Source of the DNA: Octopus vulgaris
Lineage: Eukaryota
NCBI GenBank assembly: GCA_951406725.2
Contig: OX597822.1
Location: forward strand, 22,506,001 to 22,570,000
Length of the DNA: 64,000 bases
Direction of reading: 5' to 3'
The position numbers were made by a program, and so were the translations under genes. Of the stretch, positions 2,407-61,600 are shown piece by piece. How positions within the stretch are numbered: the stretch's first letter is position 1; each line of letters starts with the position of its first letter. A model generated the notes under the pieces. The model worked only from the letters and a program-made list of their open reading frames with translations, was not told the origin of the DNA and searched no databases.

Positions 2407-2759
2407 GTAAATGCATACATTGTTTAGAGATTGAGATTGTCCCTATGCAAAGCCTTTCCTCACTTTAAAAAGCTTAAGACAGGTGTCACTTGATTTTTAA
2501 CATCATCTCTATTATGTGTTGCATACCATGGCTTGCTGTGGCTGTAAAAGAGAAAAAATCTCTGAACGAGGTATAAACAGTAGCTTCACGACAATGTGAA
2601 GTATATTTGCCACTTAAATGTGGCTAACCACTAAGGGTGGATGCTACTGTAGCTTTTAGTCCAGGAGAACATCTTCTCCAGCAAGCTATTGACACACCTT
2701 CTGTGCTCTATCAGTATTTGCAAAGGGAAGCCATCCTTCCCATCGTCGACTGACACGAT

Positions 2760-2806
2760 ACACACAGACCCGGGTTTCTGGGTATTTACCTGTCGTCAGC
2801 ACACGA
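2760..2806 (-). ncRNA. Minimal type I hammerhead ribozyme motif
   Basis: Minus strand reads cgtgtg-CTGACGA-caggtaaataccca-GAAAC-ccgg-GTC-tgtgtg: full core and a short stem III with a palindromic CCGG loop. Stem I is mostly G-U pairs, consistent with CpG decay. Confidence 0.7.
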
Positions 2807-3075
2807 CAATCACCGGTCTTCGATTAATTCTTTATTACGATTATAAAATCAGTACATAGAGGAACAATACAGGACATACATACAAAAAACAGTTAAGTGG
2901 TTCGTTTAAAAATTTCCACAATATATGGATTATTCATTATACAAAAAACTGTGTTTAAATTGTCCTTTGCATTGACTAATATAACATTACATTAGATTGA
3001 AATCTTACCGATATATTTTAAACCCCGGCAACCTATAAGGCCCCGCAGCTTTCCTTTCCTCTACTCCATCCATAG

Positions 3076-5420
3076 TTAAACTGGGTTTCTGACACCCACC
3101 TTTTTCGCCACTTCCTTCCATCTTTTTTCATACACACCTCGTGGTAAGGTCTTCTTTTCCAGCCCCATTTTGCTCTTCAGATGATATCTGAAGTAAGTGA
3201 GCAATCCGGGGCCTGAGACAAAGGATCCTATTGCGACTCCTTCCATTCTTGTATGCCACATGCATTCTTTTACTACTGCAACCATGCAGTGAAAACATGC
3301 CTCACCTTCCTTCAAGAGTCCAGTTGACGGTATCATCTTAATCATAGACTCAGCCGACAGCTGTACTCGTCCCAGATGCGATAACACGTGTTCTGCATAA
3401 CTTATCAAGTCTGACAACTGCCAACAGTGTACAAAAGCGTGCTGGACTGAAATTCCATGCGTGCCGCGATAACTTCTCATGAACAGGTAAAGCATTCCTA
3501 TAACACTGCCAGGCCAGGGATCTTTGGAAATTATCCAAATACCCCGTCCTGAAAGTCTTTTTAAACAGGTTGGTAAGCTGGTCTTCATCGAACCCCAGAG
3601 CCCCTCCTAGGACGTCGTCGTTCTTTGCCTCTACCAGCCTGCTATAAAATACCGAGGTGGTATTTCCGCAGCCGCAGCCGGCCTTGCCCGCCTTGTGGAT
3701 CAGCGTGAGTGCCTGTCGGCACTCCTTTTGCCATAAAGTCAGATTCCGTCTTTTGATGCAACCGGGTTTAAAATTCACTAAGGAAGCCGGTCTCGGGAAA
3801 AAATTTCCCTGCCAGCGGACTCCACACCTTATCATCCTCCAGGTGGTGCCAGAGATGCTTCAGCCTCAACGCATGCCTGCGCATCATCAACCAAGGCATT
3901 CCTAACCCACCCTTTAATGATTCCTGGCAGCAAACGGAGCGCCTCACAAGTGGCTTTCCTCCCTTCCACAAAAAAGCGGAAAAGGATTCGCTCCAACTTG
4001 CTAAGCCATGAATCGGGGCAAGGGACAGCGGTCAGGCGGTAAGTGATTACAGATGCAATGAACATCTGTACCACCTCCGCCCTTCCTTTCAAGGACAGAA
4101 ACCTTCTGGACCAGGTCCGTACTATGGCCTCCACCTTGTCCGTCACCTCACTCCATTTCCTCTCCGTTTGGGAGTCTGGCCCAAACCAAAATCCTAGCAA
4201 CTTAACAGGACCATCTGTCCAGTGTCCCACGGCACTGGACGATATCGACTTGCTCCTCCAGGTGCCGAGGCATAAGCCAATCGACTTGTCCTTGTTAACT
4301 TTTGCTCCTGCCACCGCTTCGGATCTTCTGATAGCATCTTCTACACAAGATAGCTGAGCCTCATAGGACACGATGAGGGTGACGTCATCCGCATAAGCAG
4401 AAACCGTCCTCCCACCTCCGATCTCATCCGGGTTACTTCCCAGCCTCTCCAACTTTCGCAGCAATGGCTCGAGAGCCAACACGTACAAAAGTGGTGACAA
4501 GGGGCACCCTTGACGAACTGAACATTCAATCGAAAACGGTTCCGTTAGGTAACCGTTTATCTGGACGGTGGACTTGATGCCGCTATACATAGCGGAGATC
4601 CACCCGCGAAATTTAGGGCCCAGTCCAGCCGCTTCGAGGACCGTCGCCAGGTACTTATGGTCTACCCTATCGAACGCTTTACTTTGGTCTAAATGGACCA
4701 TTACCCCACCCTTGCCGGTTAATTTACCCACCCTATCTAAGGTGTAGCGTATAAGGTGAAGATTGTCCTGGATCGACCTGCCTGGAATTGCACATGTCTG
4801 TGCTTTCCCTACAAGTTTCTCCACGACAGTCGTCAACCTTTTTGCCAACACCTTGGCCAAAATCTTTAACTCTACATTAAGTAGAGTTATGGGCCTGTAA
4901 TTACTAATGTTATCCCCCTTGCTCGGGTCTTTCTGGATTAGCGTCACCACTCCCCGGCTTACAGAAGTGGGAATTCTCCCGTTCTGCTGCCAGTTCACGT
5001 AGACGCCTGCCAGTATTCCCCCGAACAAGTCCGGCATACTTTGATAAAACTCGTAGGGCAGACCATCCAACCCCGGCGACTTCTCCCCGGCGCATCCGGC
5101 CAGTACCCCCTCTATCTCCGCGGAAGTGATCGCTCCTTCACAGCACTCCACCTCACGCCCCGAGAGCCGACTAGGAAGTCCTTTAAGGCCCTCTCCAGCG
5201 AAACCACCCCCCCCCCGAACACACGGGCGAAATGCTGGTGAAGAAACTTTTGCATCTCCTCCTGTCCATAGATCTTGTGTCCCTGTTTGTCAGTTAAAGA
5301 CTTGATTGAAGCTTTGTTACCTCTCTGACTCTCCACTCGACGGGCCCATCCGGCAACATTAATACCTTATCGTTTCCCTGTGCGTAGCTTAGCTCTAACT
5401 CTGCAACCTTCGTGTTTGGA
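3076..5420 (-). pseudogene. Tx1-type ORF2 (reverse transcriptase), frameshifted, lacking the APE endonuclease
   Basis: Motifs KSPGLDGLPYEFY, YRPITLLNVELKIL, LDQSKAFDRVDH, VRQGCPLSPLLY, YADD and GGLG; split over ORFs 5112-5336, 3832-5151, 3768-3971, 3350-3835 and 3076-3588. Confidence 0.92.
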
Positions 5421-5421
5421 G

Positions 5422-6195
5422 TTAAGGTGACAGTACAATACCGTCCTTGCCACCATCACTCTTTTCACCACATTTGAAACACCTAGGTCTGCGCCCCTCC
5501 ACTGACACTCTCATTGTAATTCCCTCCTCAATAAATACCCTATCGGGTAAGTTTTCTAGCACATTATTTTCTGCTTGAACGAGGAGTTCAAGCGCTTGTC
5601 CTTTCCAGTTTACCTCCTCTTTCCTTTTGATCTGCAGAATTGAGACTTTCTGCTCTACATCGTGCAGAACCGCCGCTGCTACCCACATTATATCATATCC
5701 TCTTGGTATGTCTTCCACATATATTTTCGCAGTTCTTTTGCCCATATAGGTAGGTAGTAACATGATGTTCTCACTTTTTAAGGTCATCGATGAAATCTCT
5801 CTTGCCACATCAGCTGAGTTGAAATGTGCTTCAACGGTAGCGCTGCAGGCACCTCGACCGACGTAGCGAATTTTGCTCCACACCGGGGACAAGCACTTCT
5901 CTACTATTTCGTTCTTCACGTCCATTATTTTTTTCTCTTTGTTACTGTAAACCTTGTACACGACTGTCTTGGCCTTTATTTCCTGTAATATCGCTTGCGG
6001 CGGTACCAGTTTTATTTCGTTGCCTTCCTTTTTGACCAAGTTCCGGTATTCGAACAACTGTTCTATTTTGAATTCCACTTCCGTTACGGTTCCACCCACT
6101 GCGGCCGAAAAAGACTGTTTTCTAACCTCGATATCCTTCTGTTCGCCTTTTCCCATCACGGGAAAGTCACTCCTCGACACCAAGTCGAACTCCAT
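5422..6195 (-). pseudogene. ORF1 (gag-like), truncated within the zinc knuckle
   Basis: Ends ...VSVEGRRPRCFKCGEK and then jumps to ORF2 linker sequence; aligns by eye with the intact ORF1 at 48903-50093. Confidence 0.85.
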
Positions 6196-7417
6196 TTCTC
6201 AAATTATGAGAACCAATTTTTCAAAAAAAAAAAGTTACCCCGAAGGTAATAACAATGTTTATACACAGAATTTTCAGCCCCGTAGGGCGAAAATTACTGT
6301 CACACAACGGACAACTGTTCAAATTCACGAGCAAACACAAACAAAGACGAACAAAAAACAAACTCACTCAACAAAATAGGCAGCTAACTTCTCAATACGC
6401 AGATGAAAGAGGGGTCCCTAGACGAGTCAAAACACCGGTCTTCGATGCGAAGGGGTCCCAATGCAAATACACATATCCTTTTTCCAGTGATGAAAAGTCA
6501 CTGATCTCGCAAAAGTGTAAACAAGCAATAATAAATCTCTGAACGAGGTATAAACAGTAGCTGCAACACATCGTGAAGTATATTTGCCACTAAATTTGAT
6601 GACAATAACCAAGCAATAGCATTGTTCAAAATCAAGTTGCAGCCATCATCATATCTTAAGACTACATTATTCAATGTTTTTCTTTTCTTTGATTCCTTTT
6701 CTTTGATTCCTTGTATACAATATAACAAACTAAAAAACAAAGAAAAGCAACAATAATTCCTCCTGACTGGTAAAAAGATATAAACTATGAGAGAGACACT
6801 GCTGTGAAATCAGTTGACCTTAGGGGAATGGAAATAGTCAGTATTGAAATTAAAATCCAAACATATTCTAGGATATTTTGTCTGGTTTTCTACTGTCTGC
6901 CACACCCCGTTAAGAATAATAATGATTTGTATATTGACAGAAAATCACATTTAAGGGAGTAATATAATCAATTTATCACCAAGTTTAATATACTTCCTGA
7001 TCCCTAGAAGCCCTTAATCCAGATTAGATTTCCAGTCTCATACTAACTTCTCTCCAGTCAGAGGTTTTGATTAAAGGATCATGAGGGCAGCCTTTCCTCT
7101 TATAATTAAGCCTATCTTCAAGAAAAAATAATATAAATTGACCCCCTCCCCAGTCCTTGACTAATTATTTAACCATCCTTTGAGGGATTTAAGACAAAGC
7201 TGATGACCTTGGTAGGATTTGATCTCAGAATATACATTGTTGTGTAACCAGATACCCAAGACATTTTGCTCTACCATTCCCAGCAACATTAATAGAAACT
7301 GCATCAACAGCAATAGCAATTTAGATCCAAGTTCAGTAATTTGGGAGTAGATTGTAGCTGATTAATCCAACCTTAGCCAGAGGACTGCATCAAGCTCTGT
7401 TAATAATGATGATGATG

Positions 7418-7473
<56 letters not shown>

Positions 7474-7530
7474 TAGAAGAAGAAGAAGAAGAAGAAGAAG
7501 AAGAAGAAGAAGAAGAAGAAGAAGAAGAAG

Positions 7531-9043
7531 ACGATAATAGGCATAAACATGCTAGCCATACCAGTCATAAATTACAGCTTTAACATAATAAACTGGAAGA
7601 TAAGTGAATTGAGAAACCTGGATAGAAAAACCAGAAAACTACTAACAGTGTACCGAAGTCACCACCCCAAAGCAGATGCAAACAAAATATATCTACTCCA
7701 CTCAGAAGGAGGCCATGGTCTGATACAGATAGAAAACTACTATAGAATAACAACAGCTGAACTAGCAAAGTACTTAGAAACAAAGAGGGGAAGACTACTG
7801 CATATAGTAAAGCAATATGAGAAAAAGAAAACACTTTTATCTATACACAAGGAGGCAACAAAATACAAAACAGAAGCAAACTACATTGACCTCAGATGAC
7901 CACATAGCATAAATGGTCAGAGAGACAAAAAAACAACATGAAAACTAAATTACAAAAGATGCTGACGAAGAAATGGAGAGAAAAATCACTTCATGGCCAG
8001 TACCCTACAAGGCTTGACAGAAAGGAAGTGAGCCTAAGTAAAAGCCAACAATGGCTCAAAAGCTCTGGACTAAAAGCTGAAACAGGAGGACTGATTCTCA
8101 CTGCACAAACCAATGCCTGACTACAAGCAATTATAAAAGCAAAATAACGAAGCAGGCCTCAACGTCCAAATGCAGAGTGTGCAACCAATACAATGAAACA
8201 GTTGACCACATCATCTTGGGCTGTCCAGTCTTGGCCAAGTCAGAATATGTATACAGACGTGATAAAGTAAGAAGTTATATCCACTGGACATTATGCCAAC
8301 ATTATAAAATCAAAACTTACAGCAGGTGGTATAAGCATGAGCCAAGCAAGGTACAAGATGACGATCAGGCCACAATCATCTGGGATGAGCCAGTTCAAAC
8401 CAATAAAGAAATAAAAGCTAATCAGCCAGATATAATAGTCAAAGATTGGGGAAAAAACACCTGGTTACTGATTGACATTGCAGTCCCTTCTGATCAATAT
8501 ATTGTCAAAAAAGAAGTGGAGAAATTGTTGAAGTGCAAAGACCTCGAAATTGAAGTATTCAAAATTTTGGGCGTGAAGGTAAAATCAATACCGATAAGAA
8601 CTGGAGCATTAGGCATGATAAAAAATCATATGAACAAAAATATAGATGTTATACCTGGATTCTCAACTCTACACACTGTCCAAAAAATAACCCTGCTAGC
8701 AACAGCCCACATCCCTCACAAGACATCCAATAATACAACCTAAACAAAACAATCCACAAATACAAGACACATTATACGCAGCATTTACCCAGTGAAATAA
8801 ACTCCCAGCAGTAAGCTAGAAAACCAAAATATTACACATGCAACACCACAATACAAGCAGTAAAACAACAAAAGACAGCACCACACCTCAAGGGGAAAAA
8901 AATTAACACAATACAGTACCGGGAGTGTTCGCACACTCCCAACAGCAGAAAAGAACACACAATGCTGCACACACCCCAGCAACACAGAGGTGTAGCAGGT
9001 GATGCAGTAGAAATTTGCCTCAATCTACCAAATCTTGAACAGT

Positions 9044-12001: not shown

Positions 12002-15000
12002 TAAATGAATTAGTATATACAGCAGCCACTGCAGCCACAAAAGAAGCTGGATACTCCCAAAAACCCATCCAAACAGGAGTACCACCACCCAAACAAACCC
12101 TGTGGATAAATAACATCCAAAACAAAATACAAAAAATGAGAAAAGATCAGTCGATTCTTAATGAAATCAGTATACAATCAATGCTACTAAGCAACAAAAA
12201 GAAAACAAAAATACTGTGCAAATACATCACAGAAAAAGATTTGCCTGAGATAAAAGAAAAGCTAAAGCCAGATATCCTTGCCAAAGCATAAAGGATCCGC
12301 CGGTATGAGAAATGCCAACGCTTCTTTGAACAAAACAAACAGTTCAACTCCAACCCCAAAAAGTTCTACCAAGAACTTGGCAAAAATAAAATAAACATCA
12401 CTGCAGCACCAACGGCAGAAGAAGTGAAAGAATTCTGGAAAGAAATATGGTCGGCAAATGAACAACCAAAAAAAAAGGAGTATTAAAACAACAAACTTAG
12501 CATCTGAGCAACTTTGGATCCCCATAACAAAGGAAAAGGTCACCCAGGCACTGCAAAGACTAAGCATCTGGAAGGCACCTGGGCATGACAAGATCCCCAA
12601 CTTCTGGTTGAAATATCTGACAGGAATGCACAAAAAGCTGGCTGAAAACTTTTAACAACATAATTGCAGAGCCAGAGACAATGCCTGAATGGCTCACAAA
12701 GGGGAAAACCATCTTAATTCCTAAATCCAATGAGACAGCAAAACCAGAAAACTACAGACCTATAACCTGTCTGCCTACAATGTACAAAGCATTCACTACA
12801 GTAATATCACAAAGATTGAACAAGCACCTGGACGAAAACAACCTGTTTCTAGAAGAGCAGAAAGGGTGCTGCAAAGGCTCATATGGCTGTAAAGATCAAC
12901 TAATGATCAATAAAGCCATAACTGAAGACAGCCACAGAAAGAAGAAAGGCCTCAGTATGGCCTGGATCGACTACAGAAAGGCGTTTGATAGCACCCCACA
13001 CACATGGATCCTCAAAACACTAGCCATTAACAAAGTAGCACCAACAATTATAAAATACATAGGACACTCTATGAATAAATGGCAGACAGTGCTACAGCTC
13101 CAAACAAAAGAGGGACTCGTGAAAACCAAAGCCATCCCCATTAGAAGAGGAATATTCCAGGGAGACACGCTCTCTCCACTCTTTTTCTGCTTGGCACTGT
13201 CACCTCTATCTGATATGCTAAATAGAACTGGATGCGGATGTGTTACGGCAAAACGATCAGCCACCTTTTATATATGGATGACCTAAAACTATACGCTACA
13301 GATGACAAACAGCTGGAAACACTACTAAAGACAGTTCATGGATTCACCAAAGAAATAGATATGAAATTTGGATTAGAAAAATGCACCAAAGTAACTCTGA
13401 AAAGAGGAAAACTAGTTAAGAGTAGCAACATCACACTAGATAAAGCCAATGAAATAAGAGAATTAGACCAAAGCCAAACTTGCAAATATTTAGGAATCCA
13501 TGAACTAGATAAGACAACACACACAAATAAAAGAGAAAATAAAGAAAGAATACTATAGACAAGTTAGATCAATAGTAAAAACAGAGCTCAATGCTAAAAA
13601 CAAGATAATAGGTATTAACACTTTAGCCGTCCCAGTTATAAGTTACATCTACAATATCCTTAACTGGACACTAAATGAACTAACCAAAATAGATAGGAAA
13701 ACAAGAAAAATAATGACAGGATCTAGGATGCATCACCCAAAATCTGACATAGAAAGGCTATATATACAACGTATAGAAGGTGGTAGAGGCCTTATAAAGC
13801 TGGAAAACTACTATAAAATAACCACCATAGGACTGCAAAAATACCTACGTCAGAAGCAAGGAAAACTGATACAAATAGCAGCAAAACACGAGCAAAACAA
13901 AAAATTGTTCTCAGTATTTAAGGAAGCTGACAAATACAAACAAGAAATCATACCACCTAACAAATACGAAGAAGAAGACGAAGAAGAAGAAGAAGAAGAA
14001 GAAGAAGAAGAAGAAGAAGAAGAAGAAGAAGAAGAAGAAGAAGAAGAAGAAGAAGAAGAAGAAGAAGAAGAAGAAGAAGAAGAAGACACAACAAAAGCTA
14101 TAAAGCAAATGAAATCAAAACTAAAACTAGAACAGCAACGGACCATGATAAAACGATGGCAAGAAAAGTCCCTTCATTGCAAGTACTGGACTAAACTAAA
14201 TGCAAAAGAAATAGACAAAGAAAAATCCCTGCAAAGGTTGAGAAGCTCAGGACTCAAAGCAGAGACAGAGGGATTTTTAATTGCAGCACAAGACCAAAGC
14301 CTCCCCACCAGAAATTACCAAAAACATGTAATGAAGAGAAATATAACAAGTAACTGCAGAATATGTGGAGATGGACAAGAAACAATAAATCATATTATCT
14401 CTGGCTGCCCAGTCCTGGCTAAGAAGGAATATATTCACAGACACGACAGAGTTGGGACCTACTTACACTGGAAGCTATGTCAACATTATGGAATAACAAC
14501 AGAAAAAAGATGGTATAGGCACACACCAGAAAAGGTCACAGAAAATGAGAAAGCAACCATACTCTGGTATATGCCAATACACACAGATAGAGAAATTAAG
14601 GCCAACAGACCAGAGATAGTTGTCAGAGATCATGAAGAAAAAAAAATGCTTTCTAATTGATGTATCAATACCAGCAGATGACAACGTGTCTCTAAAAGAA
14701 ATGGAGAAACTTTCAAAATACAAAGACCTGGAAATAGAGGTAACTAGAAAGTGGAATCTAAAAACAGAAACAATTCCTATCATAGTAGGTGCATTAGGCA
14801 TGGTAAAAAAATATTCAGACAAATACATAACAAAAACACCAAGACTTACAAACACATATAACATAGAGAAAATGGCACTACTAGACACTGCACACATCCT
14901 ACACAGAACACTTTCCATACAATAACCATCAGAGCATCACAACAAATCACAGCACATACCCAAGGCACACAGAGCTGCGCTCGGTAGTGAAATGAAAGCA

Positions 15001-46692: not shown

Positions 46693-47039
46693 AGCTATAC
46701 CATATTGCTGTCCTTCCACCAATACTCTTACACTTAGCTGCGTTGGTATATTGACATCCGTTTAGCACTATACTTTATGACAATCCTAACTTCTACTCTA
46801 CTAGTATTCATATGGCCCAACAATTATGCTGTACTAACAGCCCTAAGATATTACTTCACTTTAGTTTTAGTGCATATTTGGCTGTTGGTTATGATGTTTG
46901 CTTCAAATCATCTAGGTTCAATTCTACTGCAAAGCTCATCAAAAAAGCAATTTTTATGGAAAAACAAAAATTCTTAAATCTACAGAAGTCTATGTCAGAT
47001 TAAAGGACTACTATACATTATATGTTAAAATTCCTAGAT

Positions 47040-47365
47040 CATTGGATTCAAAACTATGCTTAATTGTTCAAGCAATCTACTGGACAATCTATTGAAACCA
47101 TTATGCAAATTGGTTCCTGGCTTCACCAGAGGAGACCTGGACATTTTTAATTGCATTCCCCACAGGGTAAATATAGAGATGATATTTAGTTTTATTGTGA
47201 CCAGCATCTATATAATTTCCCAAATGAATTAGTACTGAAGGCAATAGACAAATGTCCACATAACATTGGAGAGATTCTCAAAAACAGTTAATAGAAGAAA
47301 AACAATTAGTGTTTGAAAATAGCTTTTTTAATAATGGATATTTATTTCAAGTATAAAGTGGCCAT
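47040..47365 (+). pseudogene. Penelope-like reverse transcriptase remnant
   Basis: SNLLDNLLKPLCKLVPGFTRGDLDIFNCIP...FSFIVTSIY...ELVLKAI...LVFENSFF, a degenerate version of the PLE SFDVxSLYTNIP region. Confidence 0.65.
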
Positions 47366-48331: not shown

Positions 48332-50384
48332 TCTGAACTGTTCGGACATGTTATTTTGCTGCTCCAGATGCCATGTTGTTTCAACATGAATTGTTGAACT
48401 TTCGACTCGACTGCAGGTAGGCATTTTGTGTTTTTGCGAGCAAAGTGAAGTTTTATTACTTGCATTAATGTTTTTTAGCATTAAATATTTTTTTAGCAGA
48501 TAATAAGGCTCCACTTTGCTCCGGATATAATTTTTCTGCCTGTTGTCGAGTGTAAAGAAAATTGTGTTTTTGAGGCGGCGTAGTCCGTCTGCAAAAATTA
48601 TTTTTGAAATTGTCGTTGTGTTATCCACGGGATTTACCAAGGATTATTTTACCAAGGTGTTTTACCAACAGTGTATTTGGCCTGGAATACAATTTTTGGC
48701 CGAAAAAGTGAACAAAAAAAAGAAAAATTAATTCCTTTGTCTGAATTTGAACTCTCTTTCTCCGTCTATCATTCATTTGTTAAAAAAAAGAACTTTTTTT
48801 GAACTGCCATTTTAATTTTATTTCTTCCCTTCTGTTGCTTTTTTCATTCTCCTTTCTGTGTCTAATTTATTTTGTAACATTTTGAACTGTTTTTCTTACG
48901 TTATGGCAAGGAATTTCACTGTGTGGGAATTGACACCTCCCAAAAAGTACTTAAAGGAGCTCGAGGACAGAACCGTGGTGTTGAGGACATATTCGAGGTC
49001 GCTCGATACCATAATGGTTTTCCCGAAAGCCACCATTATGAACGAGCTGGCAGACTATATGCCAGCCGTTAAACATATTCAACGGGGAGCCAAATACGCA
49101 ACGATTTGGTTGCTGTTTGACTCCCCTAAAGCAGCTTGCGATTTCGCGAGTAAGCCCATTGAGGGCGAAGAGATTCTGTTTCTCCCAAGCTATAAGGGGG
49201 AAAAATTGATACGATTATGGGTCTGCGGCCTGCCGCCCGGCTTTGAGCCCGAGTGGGTGGAAGATTCCATCCGCCGGGGTCTGAGTGGTGGTAGCGCCAA
49301 GATCCTGAACGTGAGAATGCAGCCTGCGGCTGACTGGGAAGGGGCAAAGGCTACTTTGACTCTGTGGACCCAGTCGGCCAAGAGTCTGGTTTTGCCGGAC
49401 TTCTTGAAGATGGCTGGGTCCAAGTATCCGGTGATGCTTGAGGGACGCCCCCCCCCCCCCAAGTGTCACCTGTGTTCGGAGACCGGCCACATTAAGAAAA
49501 ACTGCCCCAGGAACCAGAGTAGGATCCTGGAGAAGTTAATATCAGAGCCTATCCCTGCCCCACCAATGGAGGGAGAGAAACAAAGTGAGGAGGGGGAAAA
49601 ATCCTCCTCCAAAAGAAAAAGAAAAGTGGGGAGCAATGGCGACCCACCAAAGGAACCGGAGGCTGCGGAAGAAAAAGAGGACCCGGTGCGTATAGCACTG
49701 GAACCTCAACCTCCCAAGGCCCAGCGTAAAAAGAAAAAGAAAAAGAGGAACGGGACGCCACCAGCGGACTGTAACACCCAGACGGCGTCTCCCATGTGTC
49801 CTCCAGCGGTTGTGATGCCGGAGAAATTTTATGTAGTCCTCTTCCATAAAGGAGGCACTGTAGAAAACGAAATAGGTAAGATGAGGAAGAGAAACCAATG
49901 GGAGGGACTTCGGCCTGCATGGAGTATCCCGTGGCCTTCGCAGCTGGCTGCGGAGGTCCTACTCGAAAATGATATGTGCAGGATCGAGAATTCTTTCCCG
50001 GAGGATCTCTTGCAAGTCATACCTGTATGCGGAAGCCTGACGATGGACGATTGCGTCATTAAAGCAAGAGAGTTCATCAGTCGGGTAACGTAAAATTGTA
50101 ATTGTGTTACATTGTGACAGAGGTTTATTGCCTCTGAAGAGACTTTTAAAAGTGTAAATTGTAAATTGAAATTTTTGTGAAAATTTTTTGAATTTTTGTA
50201 ATTTTTGAAATTTTGTAAATTATTGAAAAAAAAAGAAGAACATTGTTTTAGAGAAGCAAAAGTCGGCGGGCGCTTTCTGACTTCTCCCATCACCATCTTC
50301 ATCAACCACCACCATCATCCATTAATGTCCTTGTCCAGCCCGTAGCTACTCTGTGTGCTGCCCTAGTGGCAAATTATTAAAATA
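48332..50384 (+). mobile_element. ORF1-only non-autonomous retroelement (HAL1-like 'half-LINE')
   Basis: 16-bp TSD AAGTAGCTTGCTAACC at 48316-48331 and 50385-50400; ~570-bp 5' UTR, single ORF, ~290-bp 3' UTR ending ATTAAAATA; no RT or endonuclease. Confidence 0.85.
48903..50093 (+). CDS. Gag-like ORF1 protein with CCHC zinc knuckle (396 aa from first ATG)
   Basis: Uninterrupted ORF; CHLCSETGHIKKNC knuckle; basic tracts KRKRK and RKKKKKKR; collinear motifs shared with the Tx1 ORF1 at 5422-6195. Confidence 0.85.
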   Translation: MARNFTVWELTPPKKYLKELEDRTVVLRTYSRSLDTIMVFPKATIMNELADYMPAVKHIQRGAKYATIWLLFDSPKAACDFASKPIEGEEILFLPSYKGEKLIRLWVCGLPPGFEPEWVEDSIRRGLSGGSAKILNVRMQPAADWEGAKATLTLWTQSAKSLVLPDFLKMAGSKYPVMLEGRPPPPKCHLCSETGHIKKNCPRNQSRILEKLISEPIPAPPMEGEKQSEEGEKSSSKRKRKVGSNGDPPKEPEAAEEKEDPVRIALEPQPPKAQRKKKKKKRNGTPPADCNTQTASPMCPPAVVMPEKFYVVLFHKGGTVENEIGKMRKRNQWEGLRPAWSIPWPSQLAAEVLLENDMCRIENSFPEDLLQVIPVCGSLTMDDCVIKAREFISRVT

Positions 50385-53361: not shown

Positions 53362-55450
53362 AGAGTAACAAAATATACTATATCAACTATGATAATATAA
53401 TATACACCTTATCAATAACTATTTTTTTCCCCACTGCTTTTGTGAATTCCCATGACTATCACCATTCAATACCATTAATATGAATGTGAATTTGGAGCAT
53501 CATATGTGAATGTGAACTCATCATAGCGAATCTTTCATTAACTGATTACACAACTATGGACTCCACCCTTATGGATGTGTTGCAGTTACTCTCTTGATAG
53601 AGCTAGGTGATCTTGTCCCCTGATCTTCCAGGATTCCTCCACTCAGCATCAATGTAAGAAACACCATTAACTCAGTTGAGCTCTTCTGCTGCCTCTTCAA
53701 AATCTGTCATGCTGTAGTCCCATGATTTTGCTGTCTCCCTGGTAGAGTGGTTGAACAGGTATTATGCAGTAGCAAAGGGCATCCCATAACTATGCAAGGA
53801 ACAGTTGATACTATATGAGGTATTTTCAAAATATCCGCATATCCTATGCAATAACTATAATAACTGTATATAATTGTGGGTAGCATTAAAAAAAAAAGCA
53901 AAATCGGTTTAAACGCAACAACATTACTTACATAACACCTGTTTCCCGTCTTGCATGAGTTGAACAGCTAAACAGGATCTGATGAGTGAGAAGACTTTAT
54001 CATGCTTCAATGTCTTTTTTGGAATGGTTTCTAAGCTGGGTACCCTTCCTAACATCAACCACTTTACATACAAAGTGTATTGGCTGCTTTTTGAATAGCG
54101 CCAGCAGAAATTAAATCACCCTGCAACTTGCAAGACTAAGGACCAAAAGTGATTCCTAAGACTGAAGAAGAATGGAAGAGAGTGAGAGAGAGAGTAATGA
54201 TAGAAGGGTGAGCACGATATGAAAAACAGATTTGTAATTGTGAGAAGGTGGTAGTAGAAAATAACAATGTAGAAAGGAAGGGAGAATAAAAGGGATGAGT
54301 GTCTGGGGCTAGTGAGAAAGGGTGGGGACAGAGTGGAAAGATAAGGCAGGTTATGTAGTGGGAGTCCAGAGCTATTTACATTATGAGAGGAATTTTGGAC
54401 AGAAGGTATAAGGGCAAGCGGACATTACAGGGTGAAGCATGAGTTGGGGTGGGCAAAGAATTTAAAGAGAGTCAATGGAAGAAAGAGAGGTGTAGTGGGA
54501 GTAAACCAAAGAGGGAGATACCATTTCTGTGGTGACCTAGTAACATGGAAAGTAACAAAATATACAACAACAGCAACATTAACTATAATAACAGTATACA
54601 CCTTAGCAATAGCTATAACAACAATGAGCAGCAAGAAAAAAAACTAATAAAAGCAATTAACAGCAACAACTACACCAATATTTATATAACTGCAGTTGCA
54701 ATATAATTATGACAATAAAAAAACCCTCGGCAATAATTACAATCTTAATAATATAACAAATACAACAGCAACTACAATAATAGTAACTACTACTACTATT
54801 GGTACTATTATTGCTAATACTACTACAAAACTAGCAGGAAACCAAATCAATGAGAAATGTCTGCAGCGATGTAAAATATCAAAGCAACCAGGAATGTATA
54901 TATGATGGCGTGTTTGTTACCAAATCACCAGTGTTAGAGTTTTAATGGCCAAAGTAGATGTGGGAAGTGAAAATCATTGGAAAGAAAAGGACTAGATAGA
55001 GAGCAGAACAGCATCAGTTCTTATGTAGTGAACATCAAACTGACCGCTTGACCATTATATGATATTTCAAAACTAGACGTTTCAAACAGAACAATATAGA
55101 GTTTTAAAATGAATAAATAAATATGAGATTTGCCTTTGTTGTAAATTTTTGTTGCTTCATTCATCAACAAATACTGGCATTGAGTGATAGGTCTGTTTTC
55201 TCTACCTCTACCACAACCTTCGTTGCTGTAAAACTTTGTGTAGTTGAGAATGTATGTGATGCATTATGAGGGCTATGAAGTCTGGGGTGGAGATGGGGGT
55301 CAGGATGAGCATAACTACTTAGGTTTGGTAATTTGCATTTCTTGATAAAACTTTATATATTTCACATTTGAGTATAATAAAACAATGATGCTGGTGTCAG
55401 TGGGTGTAGCCTTAGTTACAGCATTGAAGATGGCATTAGAGGTGGTGGTG

Positions 55451-58400
55451 ATGGCATTGGAGGTGGTGTTAGTGGTGGTGGCACTGACAATGGTATTGGA
55501 GGCAGTGTTAGTGGTGGTGACACTGACAATGGCATTGGAGGTAGTGTTAGTGGTGGTGGTACTAACAATGGCATTGGAGGTGGTGTTAGTGGTGGTGGCA
55601 CTAACAATGGCATTGGAGGTAGTGTTAGTGGTGGTGGCACTGACAATGGCATTGGAGGTAGTGTTAGTGGTGGTGGCATTGACAATGGTATTGGAGGTAG
55701 TGTTAGTGGTGGTGGCACTGACAATGGCATTGGAGGTAGTGTTAGTGGTGGTGGCACTGACAATGGTATTGGAGGCAGTGTTAGTAGTGGTGGCACTGAC
55801 AATGGCATTGGAGGTAGTGTTAGTGGTGGTGGCACTGACAATGGTATTGGAGGTAGTGTTAGTGGTGGTGGTACTGACAATGGTATTGGAGGTAGTGTTA
55901 GTAGTGGTGGCACTGACAATGGCATTGGAGGTAGTGTTAGTGGTGGTGGCACTGACAATGGTATTGGAGGTAGTGTTAGTGGTGGTGGTACTAACAATGG
56001 CATTGGAGGTGGTGTTAGTGGTGGTGGCACTGACAATGGCATTGGAGGTAGTGTTAGTGGTGGTGGCACTGACAATGGTATTGGAGGTAGTGTTAGTGGT
56101 GGTGGTACTAACAATGGTATTGGAGGTAGTGTTAGTGGTGGTGGTACTGACAATGGTATTGGAGGTAGTGTTAGTGGTGGTGGCACTGACAATGGCATTG
56201 GAGGTAGTGTTAGTGGTGGTGGCACTGACAATAGTATTGGAGGTAGTGTTAGTGGTGGTGGTACTGACAATGGTATTGGAGGTAGTGTTAGTGGTGGTGG
56301 CACTGACAATGGCATTGGAGGTAGTGTTAGTGGTGGTGGCACTGACAATGGTATTGGAGGTAGTGTTAGTAGTGGTGGCACTGACAATGGCATTGGAGGT
56401 AGTGTTAGTGGTGGTGGCACTGACAATGGTATTGGAGGTAGTGTTAGTGGTGGTGGCACTGACAATGGCATTGGAGGTAGTGTTAGTGGTGGTGGTACTG
56501 ACAATGGTATTGGAGGTAGTGTTAGTAGTGGTGGCACTGACAATGGTATTGGAGGTAGTGTTAGTGGTGGTGGTACTAACAATGGCATTGGAGGTGGTGT
56601 TAGTGGTGGTGGCACTGACAATGGCATTGGAGGTAGTGTTAGTGGTGGTGGCACTGACAATGGCATTGGAGGTAGTGTTAGTGGTGGTGGCACTGACAAT
56701 GGCATTGGAGGTAGTGTTAGTGGTGGTGGAACTGACAATGGCATTGGAGGTAGTGTTAGTGGTGGTGGCACTGACAATGGCATTGGAGGTAGTGTTAGTG
56801 GTGGTGGCACTGACAATGGCATTGGAGGTAGTGTTAGTGGTGGTGGCACTAACAATGGTATTGGAGGTAGTGTTAGTGGTGGTAGTACTAACAATGGCAT
56901 TGGAGGTAGTGTTAGTGGTGGTGGCACTAACAATGGTATTGGAGGTAGTGTTAGTGGTGGTGGCACTGACAATGGCATTGGAGGTAGTGTTAGTGGTGGT
57001 GGCACTGACAATGGCATTGGAGGTAGTGTTAGTGGTGGTGGCACTAACAATGGTATTGGAGGTAGTGTTAGTGGTGGTGGCACTGACAATGGCATTGGAG
57101 GTAGTGTTAGTGGTGGTGGTACTAACAATGGCATTGGAGGTAGTGTTAGTGGTGGTGGTACTAACAATGGCATTGGAGGTAGTGTTAGTGGTGGTGGTAC
57201 TAACAATGGCATTGGAGGTAGTGTTAGTGGTGGTGGCACTGACAATGGCATTGGAGGTAGTGTTAGTGGTGGTGGAACTGACAATGGTATTGGAGGTAGT
57301 GTTAGTGGTGGTGGTACTAACAATGGCATTGGAGGTGGTGTTAGTGGTGGTGGCACTGACAATGGTATTGGAGGTAGTGTTAGTGGTGGTGGCACTGACA
57401 ATGGCATTGGAGGTAGTGTTAGTGGTGGTGGCACTGACAATGGCATTGGAGGTAGTGTTAGTGGTGGTGGCACTAACAATGGTATTGGAGGTAGTGTTAG
57501 TGGTGGTGGCACTGACAATGGCATTGAAGGTAGTGTTAGTGGTGGTGGTACTAACAATGGCATTGGAGGTGGTGTTAGTGGTGGTGGCACTGACAATGGT
57601 ATTGGAGGTAGTGTTAGTGGTGGTGGCACTGACAATGGTATTGGAGGTAGTGTTAGTGGTGGTGGTACTGACAATGGTATTGGAGGTAGTGTTAGTGGTG
57701 GTGGCACTGACAATGGTATTGGAGGTAGTGTTAGTGGTGGTGGCACTGACAATGGTATTGGAGGTAGTGTTAGTGGTGGTGGCACTGACAATGGCATTGG
57801 AGGTAGTGTTAGTGGTGGTGGCACTGACAATGGTATTGGAGGTAGTGTTAGTGGTGGTGGTACTAACAATGGCATTGGAGGTGGTGTTAGTGGTGGTGGC
57901 ACTGACAATGGTATTGGAGGTAATGTTAGTAGTGGTGGCACTGACAATGGCATTGGAGGTAGTGTTAGTGGTGGTGGTACTAACAATGGCATTGGAGGTG
58001 GTGTTAGTGGTGGTGGCACTGACAATGGTATTGGAGGTAGTGTTAGTGGTGGTGGCACTGACAATGGTATTGGAGGTAGTGTTAGTGGTGGTGGTACTGA
58101 CAATGGTATTGGAGGTAGTGTTAGTGGTGGTGGCACTGACAATGGTATTGGAGGTAGTGTTAGTGGTGGTGGCACTGACAATGGTATTGGAGGTAGTGTT
58201 AGTGGTGGTGGCACTGACAATGGCATTGGAGGTAGTGTTAGTGGTGGTGGCACTAACAATGGTATTGGAGGTAGTGTTAGTGGTGGTAGTACTAACAATG
58301 GCATTGGAGGTGGTGTTAGTGGTGGTGGCACTGACAATGGTATTGGAGGTAATGTTAGTAGTGGTGGCACTGACAATGGCATTGGAGGTAGTGTTAGTGG

Positions 58401-58699
58401 TGGTGGCACTGACAATGGCATTGGAGGTAGTGTTAGTGGTGGTGGCACTGACAATGGTATTGGAGGTAGTGTTAGTGGTGGTGGCACTGACAATGGTATT
58501 GGAGGTAGTGTTAGTGGTGGTGGCACTGACAATGGTATTGGAGGTAGTGTTAGTGGTGGTGGCACTGACAATGGCATTGGAGGTAGTGTTAGTGGTGGTG
58601 GCACTGACAATGGCATTGGAGGTAGTGTTAGTGGTGGTGGCACTGACAATGGCATTGGAGGTAGTGTTAGTGGTGGTGGCACTGACAATGGCATTGGAG
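55451..58699. repeat. 39-bp minisatellite, ~83 copies
   Basis: Unit ATGG(C/T)ATTGGAGGTAGTGTTAGTGGTGGTGG(C/T)ACT(G/A)ACA; register preserved (58688-55451 = 83 x 39). Confidence 0.97.
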
Positions 58700-61600
58700 A
58701 TAGCATTGGCAGTGATGATGTAGCAGTGTTGTCATTGTTTAGCCCAAAATCAGCCCCACCCAACAGAACTATAATTAAAGGCATTCCAGCTGTGGCCATC
58801 CCGTTTCTATTTTTTCTGTTGTCTTTTCATTTCTTGTGCCATGCCTACAACTATCAGCAATCATAGACCTCCATGCCAAAGTCTGAAGATTCATTATTTT
58901 TCTGGCAAAAGATGCAGTAGTGGGGGCGGGGTTCTGTTTACCTTCCGCTGGTCTATTTACAGCTTACTTTACTAATCCCTTGCTTTCTCAAGATTATCCT
59001 TAAGGTACAAGAGCTATTTAACCCTTACACTGAGGAACTAGTTCATGTGACATAATTATGAGTCTATGTGGTATTTGTCTACGGACCAGCCTTCCTGCAA
59101 GTCCTATATGCCTTAGCTGCAGAACTATCTACTATTTCACCTATAAATGAGGAACATGACAAGTACTGTTGCCCTGAACCAGAGCAGAGGTGGGAGTAGT
59201 GGCAATGAAGAGGTAACACCAAACTGCTCTGAACTCCTGTACTCCAACCTCAAAAACTGCAACCACCAAATGCAGTTTTATGTCTTGTCTTGTTATAGTT
59301 TCTCTAATTTTACATTATTCAAGGTTATTCTTTTGAGCGGATTACAGAGCATAATTTGATTGACATTTGGCCGTTATTTGAGCCGTTATATGGAGATCAT
59401 CTTAATAAGTCAACAACTGTAATGTTGATGATAGCAGTTATATTGCCAATGATAATGTTGTTGGTTTGTCTTGTTTCTAACAATTTGTGATTGTTACACT
59501 TAATCTAGGGCTGATCTGAAACTATTATCAAAAGTGTTCTGGTAAGAATAGTTAGCCTAGGATGTGAAGGAGTAGTGAGAAAGGGTGATGAACAATAGTT
59601 GAATTTTATGGCAATGTTAATAAGGTATTTTGAGATTTTCATTCTTAGTTTTGATAATGGCAATCTTTCAGCAAAATATGTAAGATATATCTTTTCTTTA
59701 TCTATTAGCATCACCTTACATGTTTTGCCTAACTATTCACTTGAATTGGCTAGAAGCTCTTTTTTTAACATATTATTTACACATTGCAATGCTTCAAGAA
59801 AATTATAATATTCTAATCTATTCTGTGTATCTCTGCATCTTTCAAATTGATTTTAGAAGTAATTTAAGTTTTAACATCTGACATGGAAGCAGCATGAAGC
59901 AGGTGATAACAATGATATGGAAATATATTTATTTATATTTCAATTTATTAACCTACTTGATATCACAAATGGATGTTAAGATTTTTGCAGGGGTTTTTGT
60001 AGTTTTTCTTTTTTTTTCAGTTTTAAATAAGTCTCTATTAATGAGATGTCTCAAAGCAAATTCAGCTATGAATAACATATTAAGTTTAAAAAAGATTACA
60101 TAGAAAATAGTGAGAAAGCTGCCTGCAGGACTCCAACTACTCATCTTCTGCGACTCAGATGTGATCCCAATTACACAAGAGCAGCTTCCTGTCTTTCTTA
60201 CATCAAATTAAATATTTTGATCTTACAAGTGAGAATGTTAGATTATAATTAGAACACAAATGAAGAAGCATCAAGATGAATATAAATGAGGTTTTATTAA
60301 TGATATTTCTCAAAGCAAATTCAGTTAAAAATAATAGCTGATAATCATTAAGTTGAAAAGAAAACCCTTGAATAGAAAGATGAGATTCAAACCATGCAGC
60401 TTCTATAACCTAGTTTTTGTTTTAATTTTATTTTTAGTCATTGAGATTCATGGTACTTATAGACTTCATGTTTCTGCTGATAAATTACCTATATTATCAT
60501 ATAAAACCTATCACATACAGTGGCAATGGAGATTTATTTCTGGAACTGCTGATACCAGCAGAATTTTGGTAAAGAGAAATGGCAAAACATGTTCTTTTAA
60601 ACTATTGGTAATTTACAAAAGTATACGTGCATAGTTTTGCAAACTGAACGATAAAGCTGATATGTTGGGAAGAAGGTAAATATTTTTTATGTCACCCAAC
60701 ATACATATTCAGAGTGAGTGAGATAAGAATGTACAGATACACAGACAAACAGACCAACAGGTAGGTAGATAGATTGAGTGAAAAACAAAGTTCTTTATGA
60801 TAAACATGTGTTGTAATAAACAATGATTAAACAATCAATATCGCCAAGACTTAGGAAAATGCTTGGTAGATAAGTTTGCAATGAATGAAAGAGAGAAAAG
60901 GTTGCGTCCAGTTTTAAATTTCTTTGGAAGCATGTTTCTCAAAATCTCAAATAAATAAATGAAATAACTGCATGTGCATGTATTTAGAAGGTGCACTTTA
61001 GTACTACATGTGGCCACCCACTCCAGAGCTAGTGGTATGACAAAATGTAACAAATACAAAATGTAAAGTGGGCTGATGACAGGAACGGTATCCATGTAGC
61101 AAAAACTACACAAGGTCACTGTTATTTCTCTGTGCCTTTGTTTTACTAACACAAATGATCCAAGGTCATAAATGTACTCTAATCATTTTCAATATGTTTA
61201 AGTCTTTTGTCTGTTAGAATCAAGATTGAACTCATACTGTGCCGATGGCACATACTGACAAGACTATAGCTGTCCTCTTGTCTTCAGACAATCAGACTAA
61301 CTTTTCCATAATGACATGTCAATTCCAGAGAATTCTTAATTTTTGAGAATTTTACCTCCTGTTCATTCAGAGTTGATCCTAATTGCCAACAGGCACTTAC
61401 CAAAACAAGAATATCTGACTACAGAATTATTTATTTTAGTACATTTTGTTCTAATATATATATATATATATATATAAAATCATCTGCTTATGTCCATCTC
61501 TGTTATGCTAGCATGGATTGGATGATTTGACAGGATCTTATGAACCCAAGGACAGCATTGTGCTCCTGTGCTGGCTTTAGTATGTCTTTTTCTGACTGGT

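What the first reader, a model, noticed from the sequence alone, without database searches (positions are those of the whole stretch)
2556..6591. Hidden 355-bp hammerhead-bearing, terminally redundant element (candidate non-LTR retrozyme)
Seen: excising the LINE joins 2556-2824 to 6447-6591, giving one 355-bp unit plus a ~59-bp repeat of its start, with a type I hammerhead core (CUGACGA...GAAAC-ccgg-GUC) internally on the minus strand and no ORF. Established: metazoan non-LTR retrozymes are short tandem units of a few hundred bp with a type I hammerhead, yield circular RNAs and are thought to use Penelope-like RT. Inference: a 1.17-mer with an internal ribozyme is what reverse transcription running more than once round a circular RNA would leave. 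Penelope RT and GIY-YIG remnants occur in this window. I cannot tell whether the family is already described.
Basis: partly seen in the sequence, partly recalled or inferred. Interest (0 to 1): 0.78.

Follow-up and report, generated by a model that had tools for sequence, protein, structure and literature searches.

The report
Hammerhead retrozyme targeted by Tx1 LINEs
This is one decayed copy of an abundant 357-base non-coding repeat that carries a predicted self-cutting hammerhead RNA and is likely copied by Penelope-type enzymes; the larger jumping gene inside it belongs to a family that inserts at one exact spot in these repeats, and a sister family has likely just begun to switch to U2 small nuclear RNA genes.

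Summary
Observation confirmed: removing the LINE (14-bp target duplication) restores a 355-bp non-coding unit plus a 60-70-bp terminal repeat, with a type I hammerhead on the minus strand. It belongs to a dispersed family (3,467 search candidates) whose hammerhead covaries across subfamilies; the window copy is CpG-decayed. Copies are not circularly permuted: 30 of 30 end at one of two fixed 3' points about 40 nt apart, with scattered 5' ends, inverted partners and (TA)n targets. That is the Penelope integration signature, but no copy examined is joined to a Penelope ORF. A circular template is likely, not shown.

It is a Tx1-type family: all 37 exact 3' ends in the genome lie at one site just upstream of a hammerhead of this superfamily (32 directly, 3 behind a stacked Tx1, 2 in a related family). 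Four young copies of a sister family sit at +1 of U2 snRNA genes and carry a 14-nt relic of the retrozyme target, a likely target switch in progress. Two earlier scan notes report Tx1 targeting of Penelope hammerhead tails in other genomes (unchecked here).

The parts
2553..2824 (-). 3' part of the hammerhead unit (family A), from the target duplication to the fixed 'tailed' 3' end
   Evidence: 89-93% to 29 other copies over 1-255; fixed end
2553..2622 (-). 3' copy of the terminal repeat; holds both fixed 3' end points (untailed end near 2596-2602, tailed end near 2553-2556)
   Evidence: 88.6% to 6530-6598; end classes u312-323 and u351-u18; motif position
2754..2813 (-). Type I hammerhead with stem I arms (2800-2813 and 2754-2766); core 2767-2799; predicted cleavage between 2767 and 2766; stem I decayed to 1 WC + 5 G-U
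   Evidence: pattern match; positions; covariation across 31 copies; pairing count
2811..2824 (-). Target-site duplication, downstream copy (14 bp)
   Evidence: same register at other loci
2825..6432 (-). Tx1-type LINE, family 1; 3.6-kb internally deleted copy of a ~5.3-kb element (lacks family positions ~978-2626: 3' half of ORF1 and the endonuclease; breakpoint near 5460). No poly(A); AATAAA at 2831-2836
   Evidence: deletion; Pfam zf-CCHC, Exo_endo_phos, RVT_1, zf-RVT on a full copy; Tx1 as best named cellular-independent match
6402..6418 (-). Stretch in the LINE 5' UTR that resembles the target sequence just upstream of the insertion site
   Evidence: sequence shows it directly; origin not tested
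6433..6446 (-). Target-site duplication, upstream copy (14 bp)
6447..6532 (-). 5' part of the unit, with a 7-bp hairpin at 6485-6503 that has a counterpart in family B
6530..6598 (-). 5'-truncated second unit (the 0.17 of the 1.17-mer)
   Evidence: its closest match among 15 loci is the 3' repeat of the same locus (row L226)

Best explanation
The element is a decayed copy of a non-coding 357-bp hammerhead repeat that is likely a Penelope-mobilised non-LTR retrozyme, and the LINE inside it belongs to a Tx1-type family that inserts at one fixed site of this repeat superfamily. Shown: unit, family, covarying hammerhead, two fixed 3' ends, scattered 5' ends, inverted partners, (TA)n targets, site-specific LINE insertions with 14-17-bp duplications, four sister-family copies at +1 of U2 genes. 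Inferred (about 0.85): a Penelope RT/GIY-YIG protein nicks (TA)n DNA and primes at one of two A/T-rich points of the retrozyme RNA, giving tailed, untailed and inverted copies. Inferred (about 0.6): the template is a ligated circle made by dimer-dependent hammerhead cleavage, so RT can pass the cleavage site and go round more than once. Inferred (about 0.9): the Tx1 apurinic-like endonuclease reads the DNA sequence at the site (TTC-ATCG...GGTG), using the multicopy repeat as a safe harbour. Inferred (about 0.75): a young sister subfamily reached U2 genes because the U2 start resembles one retrozyme target variant, and it carried 14 nt of its old target along at its 5' end.
For: Family and core: 3,467 candidates; 60 exact intact-core copies of the window's subfamily, control 0; on 31 hammerheads 92% of cells paired, 47 two-sided changes, 0/500 shuffles, C3-G8 16 / U3-A8 12 / U-G 3, loop III palindrome kept in all 29 rows with letters at the outer pair; one copy hits Rfam Hammerhead_HH9 at E 7.5e-6, below gathering; units fold with z -4.0 to -6.6 as circles (5 of 5). 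Penelope signature: 30 of 30 3' ends in two classes (19 tailed, 11 untailed), all 7 loci with an inverted partner pair one tailed with one untailed end, as described for PLEs (10.1101/2021.04.23.441226); 24 of 55 ends abut (TA)n, as do the genome's intact 781-aa Penelope elements. Continuous template: 23 of 30 copies cross the cleavage site, none starts within 8 nt of it; terminal repeats are closer within than between loci (0.91 vs 0.81; own locus best in 10 of 15). Tx1 targeting: 37 of 37 exact tails; 29 of 30 5' ends flanked by the element, the other by a stacked Tx1; LINE tails 97.8% alike but their targets 80.9%, Mantel p 0.12; six target variants each duplicated on both sides. U2: Rfam U2 1-192, exactly 4 junctions, 98.6-99.4% alike, nested among retrozyme-inserted copies.
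Against: No autonomous Penelope partner with a matching end was found among 30 GIY-YIG loci and 20 longer stretches, of about 6,100 candidates, so the mobilising enzyme is not identified. No RNA evidence: no holder is on record as RNA and the depth profile of guessed-RNA runs follows that of the large runs. Family A has no long tandem arrays (max 1.83 units; 60 exact cores all dispersed), unlike most published retrozymes, and its weak stem III predicts little monomer cleavage; none of 5 folded units adopts the active fold. The window's subfamily has a C-A mismatch at the base of stem II (16 of 31 rows unpaired there). In one published test 8 of 9 predicted retrozyme dimers did not cleave (10.64898/2026.07.22.740005). 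6 of 26 junction-selected copies have other apparent 3' ends. The Tx1 node has only 81/87 support. Searches score the 40 best candidates, so samples lean to young copies.
Confidence: 0.8

Rival explanations
1. The unit is a plain solo pLTR: the terminal repeat of a coding Penelope element, left by 5' truncation.
For: Same hallmarks as PLE ends (fixed 3' ends, tail, inversions, TA targets); Xenopus retrozymes match PLE pLTRs (10.64898/2026.07.22.740005); only a small part of the genome's PLEs was sampled.
Against: Upstream of a unit lies another unit in register, never an ORF: 5 of 118 element loci (4 places) have PLE coding pieces within 1.5 kb, all downstream, inverted or over 1.2 kb away behind unrelated DNA. 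No similarity to 33 PLE 3' regions. The genome's PLE hammerheads are minimal types with other sequences.
Confidence: 0.1
2. The partial tandems come from linear RNA: read-through of tandem master loci or RT template jumps, with no circle.
For: PLE partial tandems form without a known circle; the family-B trimer mixes two variants; no RNA circle was seen.
Against: The unit junction is seamless in the copies that cross it; 3' ends run 0-22 nt on into the next unit, so the template continues on both sides; each subfamily regenerates its own redundancy; circles are shown for mussel and coral retrozymes of like size (PMC7229834).
Confidence: 0.35
3. The LINE targets this site in order to use the host hammerhead: read-through RNA is cut 58 nt past the LINE end, and the target-derived 3' end pairs with the nicked DNA.
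For: Same strand and fixed distance in all direct insertions, no poly(A) at any of 37 junctions, ribozyme left whole downstream; co-transcribed target is reported to strengthen specificity (PMC4494074).
Against: AATAAA lies 6 nt before the LINE end; orientation follows from an asymmetric cut site; many targets have damaged cores; U2-inserted and stacked copies have no hammerhead next to them; monomer cleavage is predicted weak.
Confidence: 0.2
4. The LINE-element link is hitch-hiking: one chimeric locus was amplified as a unit.
For: Three truncated copies (L091+, L194, L213) lack an upstream duplication and look like Penelope-type copies of a LINE-retrozyme chimera.
Against: Targets are 60-99% alike while LINE tails average 97.8%, with no correlation; duplications follow the local variant on both sides; two LINE families and two element families are involved.
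Confidence: 0.03

Closest known systems
Metazoan non-LTR retrozymes (Cervera and de la Pena 2020, PMC7229834; mussel repeats of ~350-390 bp)
   Same: Non-coding, <50% GC, 357-bp unit, canonical type I hammerhead, highly self-paired predicted fold, co-existence with autonomous PLEs.
   Different: Family A is dispersed as 0.4-1.8-unit copies, not arrays; expression, cleavage and circles not shown; insertion ends are mapped here and carry the PLE tail/inversion signature.
Penelope-like element pLTRs (PMC4209133; 10.1101/2021.04.23.441226; 10.64898/2026.07.22.740005)
   Same: Fixed 3' end, ~40-nt tail on one end only, inverted 5'-truncated partner, microsatellite targets, U3-A8 core variant, palindromic loop III.
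   Different: No ORF; canonical rather than minimal hammerhead; no matching autonomous family found in the sample.
Target-specific Tx1-clade LINEs: Tx1L in Tx1D, Tx1-Mar in Mariner-N4, Kibi, Koshi (as described in PMC4494074)
   Same: ORF1 zinc knuckle, ORF2 APE-RT-zinc finger, a multicopy repeat as target, fixed site, ~14-17-bp duplication, stacked insertions.
   Different: The target is a ribozyme-bearing retrozyme; such a target is not among those listed in the passages read.
Keno and Utopia, U2-targeting non-LTR elements (PMC4640811)
   Same: Insertion into U2 snRNA genes; Keno is also a Tx1-clade APE element.
   Different: Keno/Utopia leave U2 from nucleotide 39 downstream; here the whole gene (1-192) lies downstream and the duplication spans about -3 to +14; only 4 copies, nested in a retrozyme-targeting family.

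Membership tests
non-LTR retrozyme | Type I hammerhead in a 150-450-bp non-coding unit of <50% GC | tested here: met
non-LTR retrozyme | Occurs as tandem repeats (two complete hammerheads in a row) | tested here: inconclusive
   Partial tandems common; two hammerheads in tandem at L084 and in family B up to ~3 units; window copy and most family-A copies have one; 60 exact cores dispersed
non-LTR retrozyme | No LTR/PBS/PPT and no attached coding ORF | tested here: met
   no ORF; no contiguous sense PLE ORF at 118 loci; PBS/PPT not looked for separately
non-LTR retrozyme | Self-cleavage of the RNA | not testable with these tools
   covariation only; window copy decayed
non-LTR retrozyme | Abundant linear and circular monomer RNA | tested here: inconclusive
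   only contigs of runs not on record as RNA; profile equals that of the large runs
Penelope-like element (autonomous) | ORF with RT and GIY-YIG between pLTRs | tested here: not met
Penelope-like element (integration signature) | Fixed 3' end, 30-40-nt tail on one end, inverted 5'-truncated partner, partial tandem | tested here: met
   against the description
Tx1 clade LINE | ORF1 with CCHC knuckle; ORF2 with APE endonuclease, RT and C-terminal zinc finger | tested here: met
   on L101; shared with the L1 clade, so not diagnostic alone
Tx1 clade LINE | RT groups with Xenopus Tx1 rather than L1 | tested here: inconclusive
   289 bits to Tx1 ORF2 vs 179 to human L1; node with Tx1 81/87, human L1 not in the tree
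Target-specific LINE (>20% of flanks in one repeat, PMC4494074) | Same repeat and same site at the flanks | tested here: met
   32 of 37 directly in family A, 37 of 37 at the homologous site
Keno | Insertion before U2 nucleotide 39 | tested here: not met
   downstream U2 starts at nucleotide 1

The most novel reading that the evidence does not exclude
A three-tier parasite chain with a target switch caught in the act: Penelope enzymes copy a hammerhead RNA circle; at least two Tx1 families live only in that circle's genomic copies and are co-transcribed with them, taking target RNA at their 5' end and letting the host ribozyme cut their 3' end; one young subfamily has moved to the +1 position of U2 genes, under the U2 promoter, still carrying 14 nt of its old target. 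With the two unchecked scan notes from other genomes, hammerhead-bearing Penelope-type ends would be a widespread, unreported niche for Tx1 elements.
Probability: 0.2. Interest if true: 0.82.

Novelty: new variant of a known kind. Interest (0 to 1): 0.62.

Why it matters
Which enzyme spreads animal retrozymes is open: PMC7229834 names PLEs as candidates and the 2026 preprint adds co-occurrence and pLTR similarity. Here the insertion ends themselves carry the Penelope signature in a family with no ORF, and intact Penelope elements exist in the same genome, so a trans-mobilisation test is defined. The Tx1 families add a target not found in the papers searched, with single-nucleotide precision across 60-99% diverged targets, a natural specificity profile for an APE endonuclease. 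The four U2 copies give a polarised, very recent target change with an almost unchanged endonuclease, a direct case for how target-specific LINEs reach snRNA genes. The retrozyme alone would be an ordinary new member.

Tried and rejected
RNA evidence: no RNA holder listed. Depth in five guessed-RNA runs falls about 30-fold near the hammerhead, which first looked like a cleavage product, but three large runs of unknown kind show the same fall, so it reflects sequence divergence among subfamilies; rejected. Rfam: nothing on the window; 1 of 6 loci hits a hammerhead model below gathering. Autonomous partner: none among 30 GIY-YIG loci and 20 stretches; PLE pieces beside elements at L074, L126/L180, L027/L181, L033/L179, L183, L065, L020 read as neighbours in shared (TA)n or unrelated DNA. 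Random permutation: rejected. Copies starting at the cleavage site: 0 of 30. Donor-derived upstream duplication: 16 mismatches in 392 positions over 28 comparable loci of 36 fits plain decay; only 3 loci (L107, L222, L207) show the commonest variant upstream and the local one downstream, a hint only. DNA context of the 38-42% ORF2 homologues from other animals could not be fetched, so conservation of the target outside this genome is untested. Look-ups of earlier findings by place, by sequence (two) and by a second word set returned nothing. Paper searches for Tx1 with retrozyme (0 papers), with hammerhead (1, unrelated by listing), with Penelope and target terms showed no report of this target; Repbase and Dfam could not be searched.
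Full report
Observation. The window lies in G000, a 2.8-Gb genome; the closest named ORF2 homologue is from Argonauta hians, 57%, so the host is likely an octopod (inference). A 14-bp direct repeat flanks a minus-strand LINE at 2811-2824 and 6433-6446. Removing LINE and one copy gives 355 bp, 44% GC, no ORF over 19 codons, followed by a repeat of the start (2553-2622 vs 6530-6598, 88.6%). The only hammerhead-pattern match in the window is at 2767-2799, minus strand. Below, 'sense' is this minus strand and unit positions u1-u357 are those of a natural copy (L007), cleavage after u144.

The family. The left piece draws 3,467 candidates; the 40 best are 90-93% identical and cross the LINE junction without a break. 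An exact pattern for the intact core of this subfamily finds 60 dispersed copies, control 0. Other subfamilies are 68-86% like the reference unit. A related family B (365-375 bp, 63% over 271 nt, E 9e-14; 2,474 candidates) has the same layout and reaches about 3 units at one locus.

The ribozyme. On 31 hammerheads taken from LINE junctions (two family-B rows misaligned in their 3' half and left in), my named type I structure has 92% of cells paired, 47 two-sided changes against 16.5 in shuffles (0/500) and at most 14 with slid partners (relatedness inflates such counts). C3-G8 (16) alternates with U3-A8 (12), a variant known from Schistosoma PLEs (PMC4209133, part 1 of 4 read). Stem II covaries, and loop III changes sequence while staying palindromic, the mark of hammerheads that work as dimers (same paper). 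Against: 16 of 31 rows, the window's subfamily among them, are unpaired at the base of stem II; Rfam scores only 1 of 6 loci, below gathering, and not the window copy. Five units fold as circles with z -4.0 to -6.6 on the sense strand, -2.0 to -4.5 on the other, none in the active fold. The window copy has lost stem I pairs by C-to-T changes (1 WC + 5 G-U vs mode 4+2), so it is likely dead.

How it moves. With a mid-unit query that fixes neither end, 30 of 30 rows (27 loci) end 3' at u351-u18 (19) or u312-323 (11); 5' ends scatter; all 7 loci with an inverted partner have one long and one short end. In 55 copies from the other two queries, 22 have an inverted piece, 24 abut (TA)n, the longest is 1.83 units, and 6 of the 26 junction-selected copies have other apparent ends. 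A 30-40-bp tail on one end, an inverted 5'-truncated partner and partial tandems are the described structure of PLE insertions (10.1101/2021.04.23.441226, passages). Intact 781-aa RT/GIY-YIG elements exist in the genome and also end at (TA)n. None of 30 GIY-YIG loci or 20 longer stretches shares sequence with the unit as its own end, and none of 118 element loci has a contiguous sense PLE ORF. So the unit behaves as a non-autonomous PLE passenger, not a permuted repeat and not a plain pLTR. The template is continuous: 23 of 30 copies cross the cleavage site and none starts at it (nearest u136, u154), 3' ends run up to 22 nt into the next unit, and terminal repeats are more alike within a locus (0.91) than between loci (0.81; own locus best in 10 of 15 usable of 33, two of the 15 with non-homologous segments; p 0.012). 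A ligated circle explains this most simply (about 0.6); tandem read-through or template jumps remain. Circles are shown for coral and mussel retrozymes (PMC7229834, abstract and sections 13, 14, 17). Public runs gave nothing usable.

The LINE is site-specific. Full copies are about 5.3 kb with a zinc-knuckle ORF1 and APE-RT-zinc-finger ORF2; the window copy lacks 1.65 kb including the endonuclease. ORF2 scores 289 bits to Xenopus Tx1 and 179 to human L1 and joins Tx1 in a tree with modest support. Of the 30 best 5' ends, 29 are flanked by the element and one by a stacked LINE. An exact pattern finds 37 tails genome-wide: 32 are followed directly by family A in the same register, core 25 nt on and predicted cleavage 58 nt on; 3 by a duplication and another Tx1 5' end; 2 by family B at the homologous place. 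No junction has poly(A). The duplication follows the local target: six variants are each found on both sides; 16 of 28 comparable pairs are identical, 16 mismatches in 392 positions. LINE tails are 97.8% alike, their targets 80.9% (60-99%), without correlation (Mantel rho 0.11, p 0.12), so these are independent insertions. Even 50,000 target copies would be about 0.5% of the genome (my estimate). Tx1 families are known to target transposons, U2, U5, 5S, satellites and microsatellites (PMC4494074, passages); a retrozyme is not among the targets in what I read.

A sister family and U2. Family 2 (ORF2 about 79% to family 1) has, in its 30 best 5' ends, 16 in family A, 2 in family B, 8 stacked behind another Tx1 tail (6 read by eye), and 4 in U2 genes. 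Rfam confirms full U2 1-192 directly downstream at three of these places; the fourth is stacked in front of one of them. An exact-plus-one-mismatch pattern finds just these 4 junctions, three in an array on C3 and one on C23 with a different upstream sequence, so at least two independent genes plus one stacked insertion. They are 98.6-99.4% alike, 96-98% to a retrozyme-inserted copy, and sit at the tip of the family-2 tree among retrozyme-inserted copies (5' 1.7 kb, 34 rows). All four begin with ATCGCTACGTGGTG, one letter from the retrozyme duplication at L273, L274, L282 and L287, which branch just below them. The U2 start (TTT-ATCGCTTCTCGGCC) resembles that variant (TTC-ATCGCTACCTGGTG). I read this as a recent move from retrozyme to U2 by sequence likeness, with an endonuclease that differs at few positions. 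The site differs from that of Keno and Utopia, nucleotide 39 (PMC4640811, passages and section 6). The carried 14 nt suggest that LINE RNA can start in its target; whether the hammerhead cuts the LINE's 3' end is open and, given AATAAA 6 nt before the end and the copies without a downstream ribozyme, unlikely (about 0.2).

Novelty. An octopus repeat annotation lists L1-Tx1 and Penelope families but does not contain 'hammerhead' or 'ribozyme' (PMC13282606, part 1 of 3 and passages; supplements not read, and they may name these families). Nine paper searches (listings only unless cited) showed no Tx1 family in a retrozyme or at U2 +1; Repbase and Dfam were out of reach. Two earlier notes of this scan describe Tx1 elements targeting Penelope hammerhead tails in other genomes; I found the targeting before seeing them and did not check them. 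Hammerhead numbering and the TPRT model are from established knowledge, recalled. Verdict: new variant of a known kind, interest 0.62.

Noticed in passing
L321-L324 (G000:C3:20812065-20833440; C23:43310090-43315860): Four near-identical family-2 Tx1 copies at +1 of U2 snRNA genes, each with a 14-nt retrozyme-like 5' extension; the U2 promoter now lies in front of the LINE.
   Followed up: yes
L191, L192, L291-L320: Related hammerhead family B (365-375 bp), mostly with a CCGAUGA core, two fixed 3' ends about 55 nt apart, up to about 3 units; also hit by both Tx1 families.
   Followed up: partly
L091:1090-1540, L194:5800-7230, L213:6850-7310: 5'-truncated LINE pieces joined to a retrozyme 3' part with no upstream duplication, one beside (TA)n and one with an inverted retrozyme arm; may be Penelope-type copies of a LINE-retrozyme read-through RNA.
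   Followed up: partly
L329/L207 (G000:C15:60817000-60827330), also L107, L222: Upstream copy of the duplication is the commonest variant while the downstream copy is the local one; may be target sequence brought by the donor RNA.
   Followed up: partly
window 6402-6418: The family-1 LINE 5' UTR holds a near copy of the target sequence upstream of the insertion site, perhaps an older captured target piece.
   Followed up: no
L171-L178, L141-L170: A young Penelope family with many intact 781-aa ORFs, a U3-A8 minimal hammerhead 70-150 nt before a (TA)n end, and a 479-aa ORF upstream in L175.
   Followed up: partly
window 46916-47211: Penelope RT remnant (E about 1e-7).
   Followed up: partly
window 48816-50090: 425-aa open frame with a weak zinc-knuckle match (E 0.001), likely another LINE ORF1.
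   Followed up: no
window 12621-14657 and 7477-8743: RT-bearing non-LTR remnants of another clade, with a C-terminal zinc-finger and restriction-like nuclease-looking motifs (recalled resemblance).
   Followed up: no
window 55295-58860: 39-bp minisatellite of about 85 copies, open in several frames.
   Followed up: no
L007:1300-1460: An unrelated repeat with very high depth in the guessed-RNA runs, 10-20 times that of the retrozyme.
   Followed up: no
L302: A second hammerhead-like motif of another sequence type near a family-B copy.
   Followed up: no
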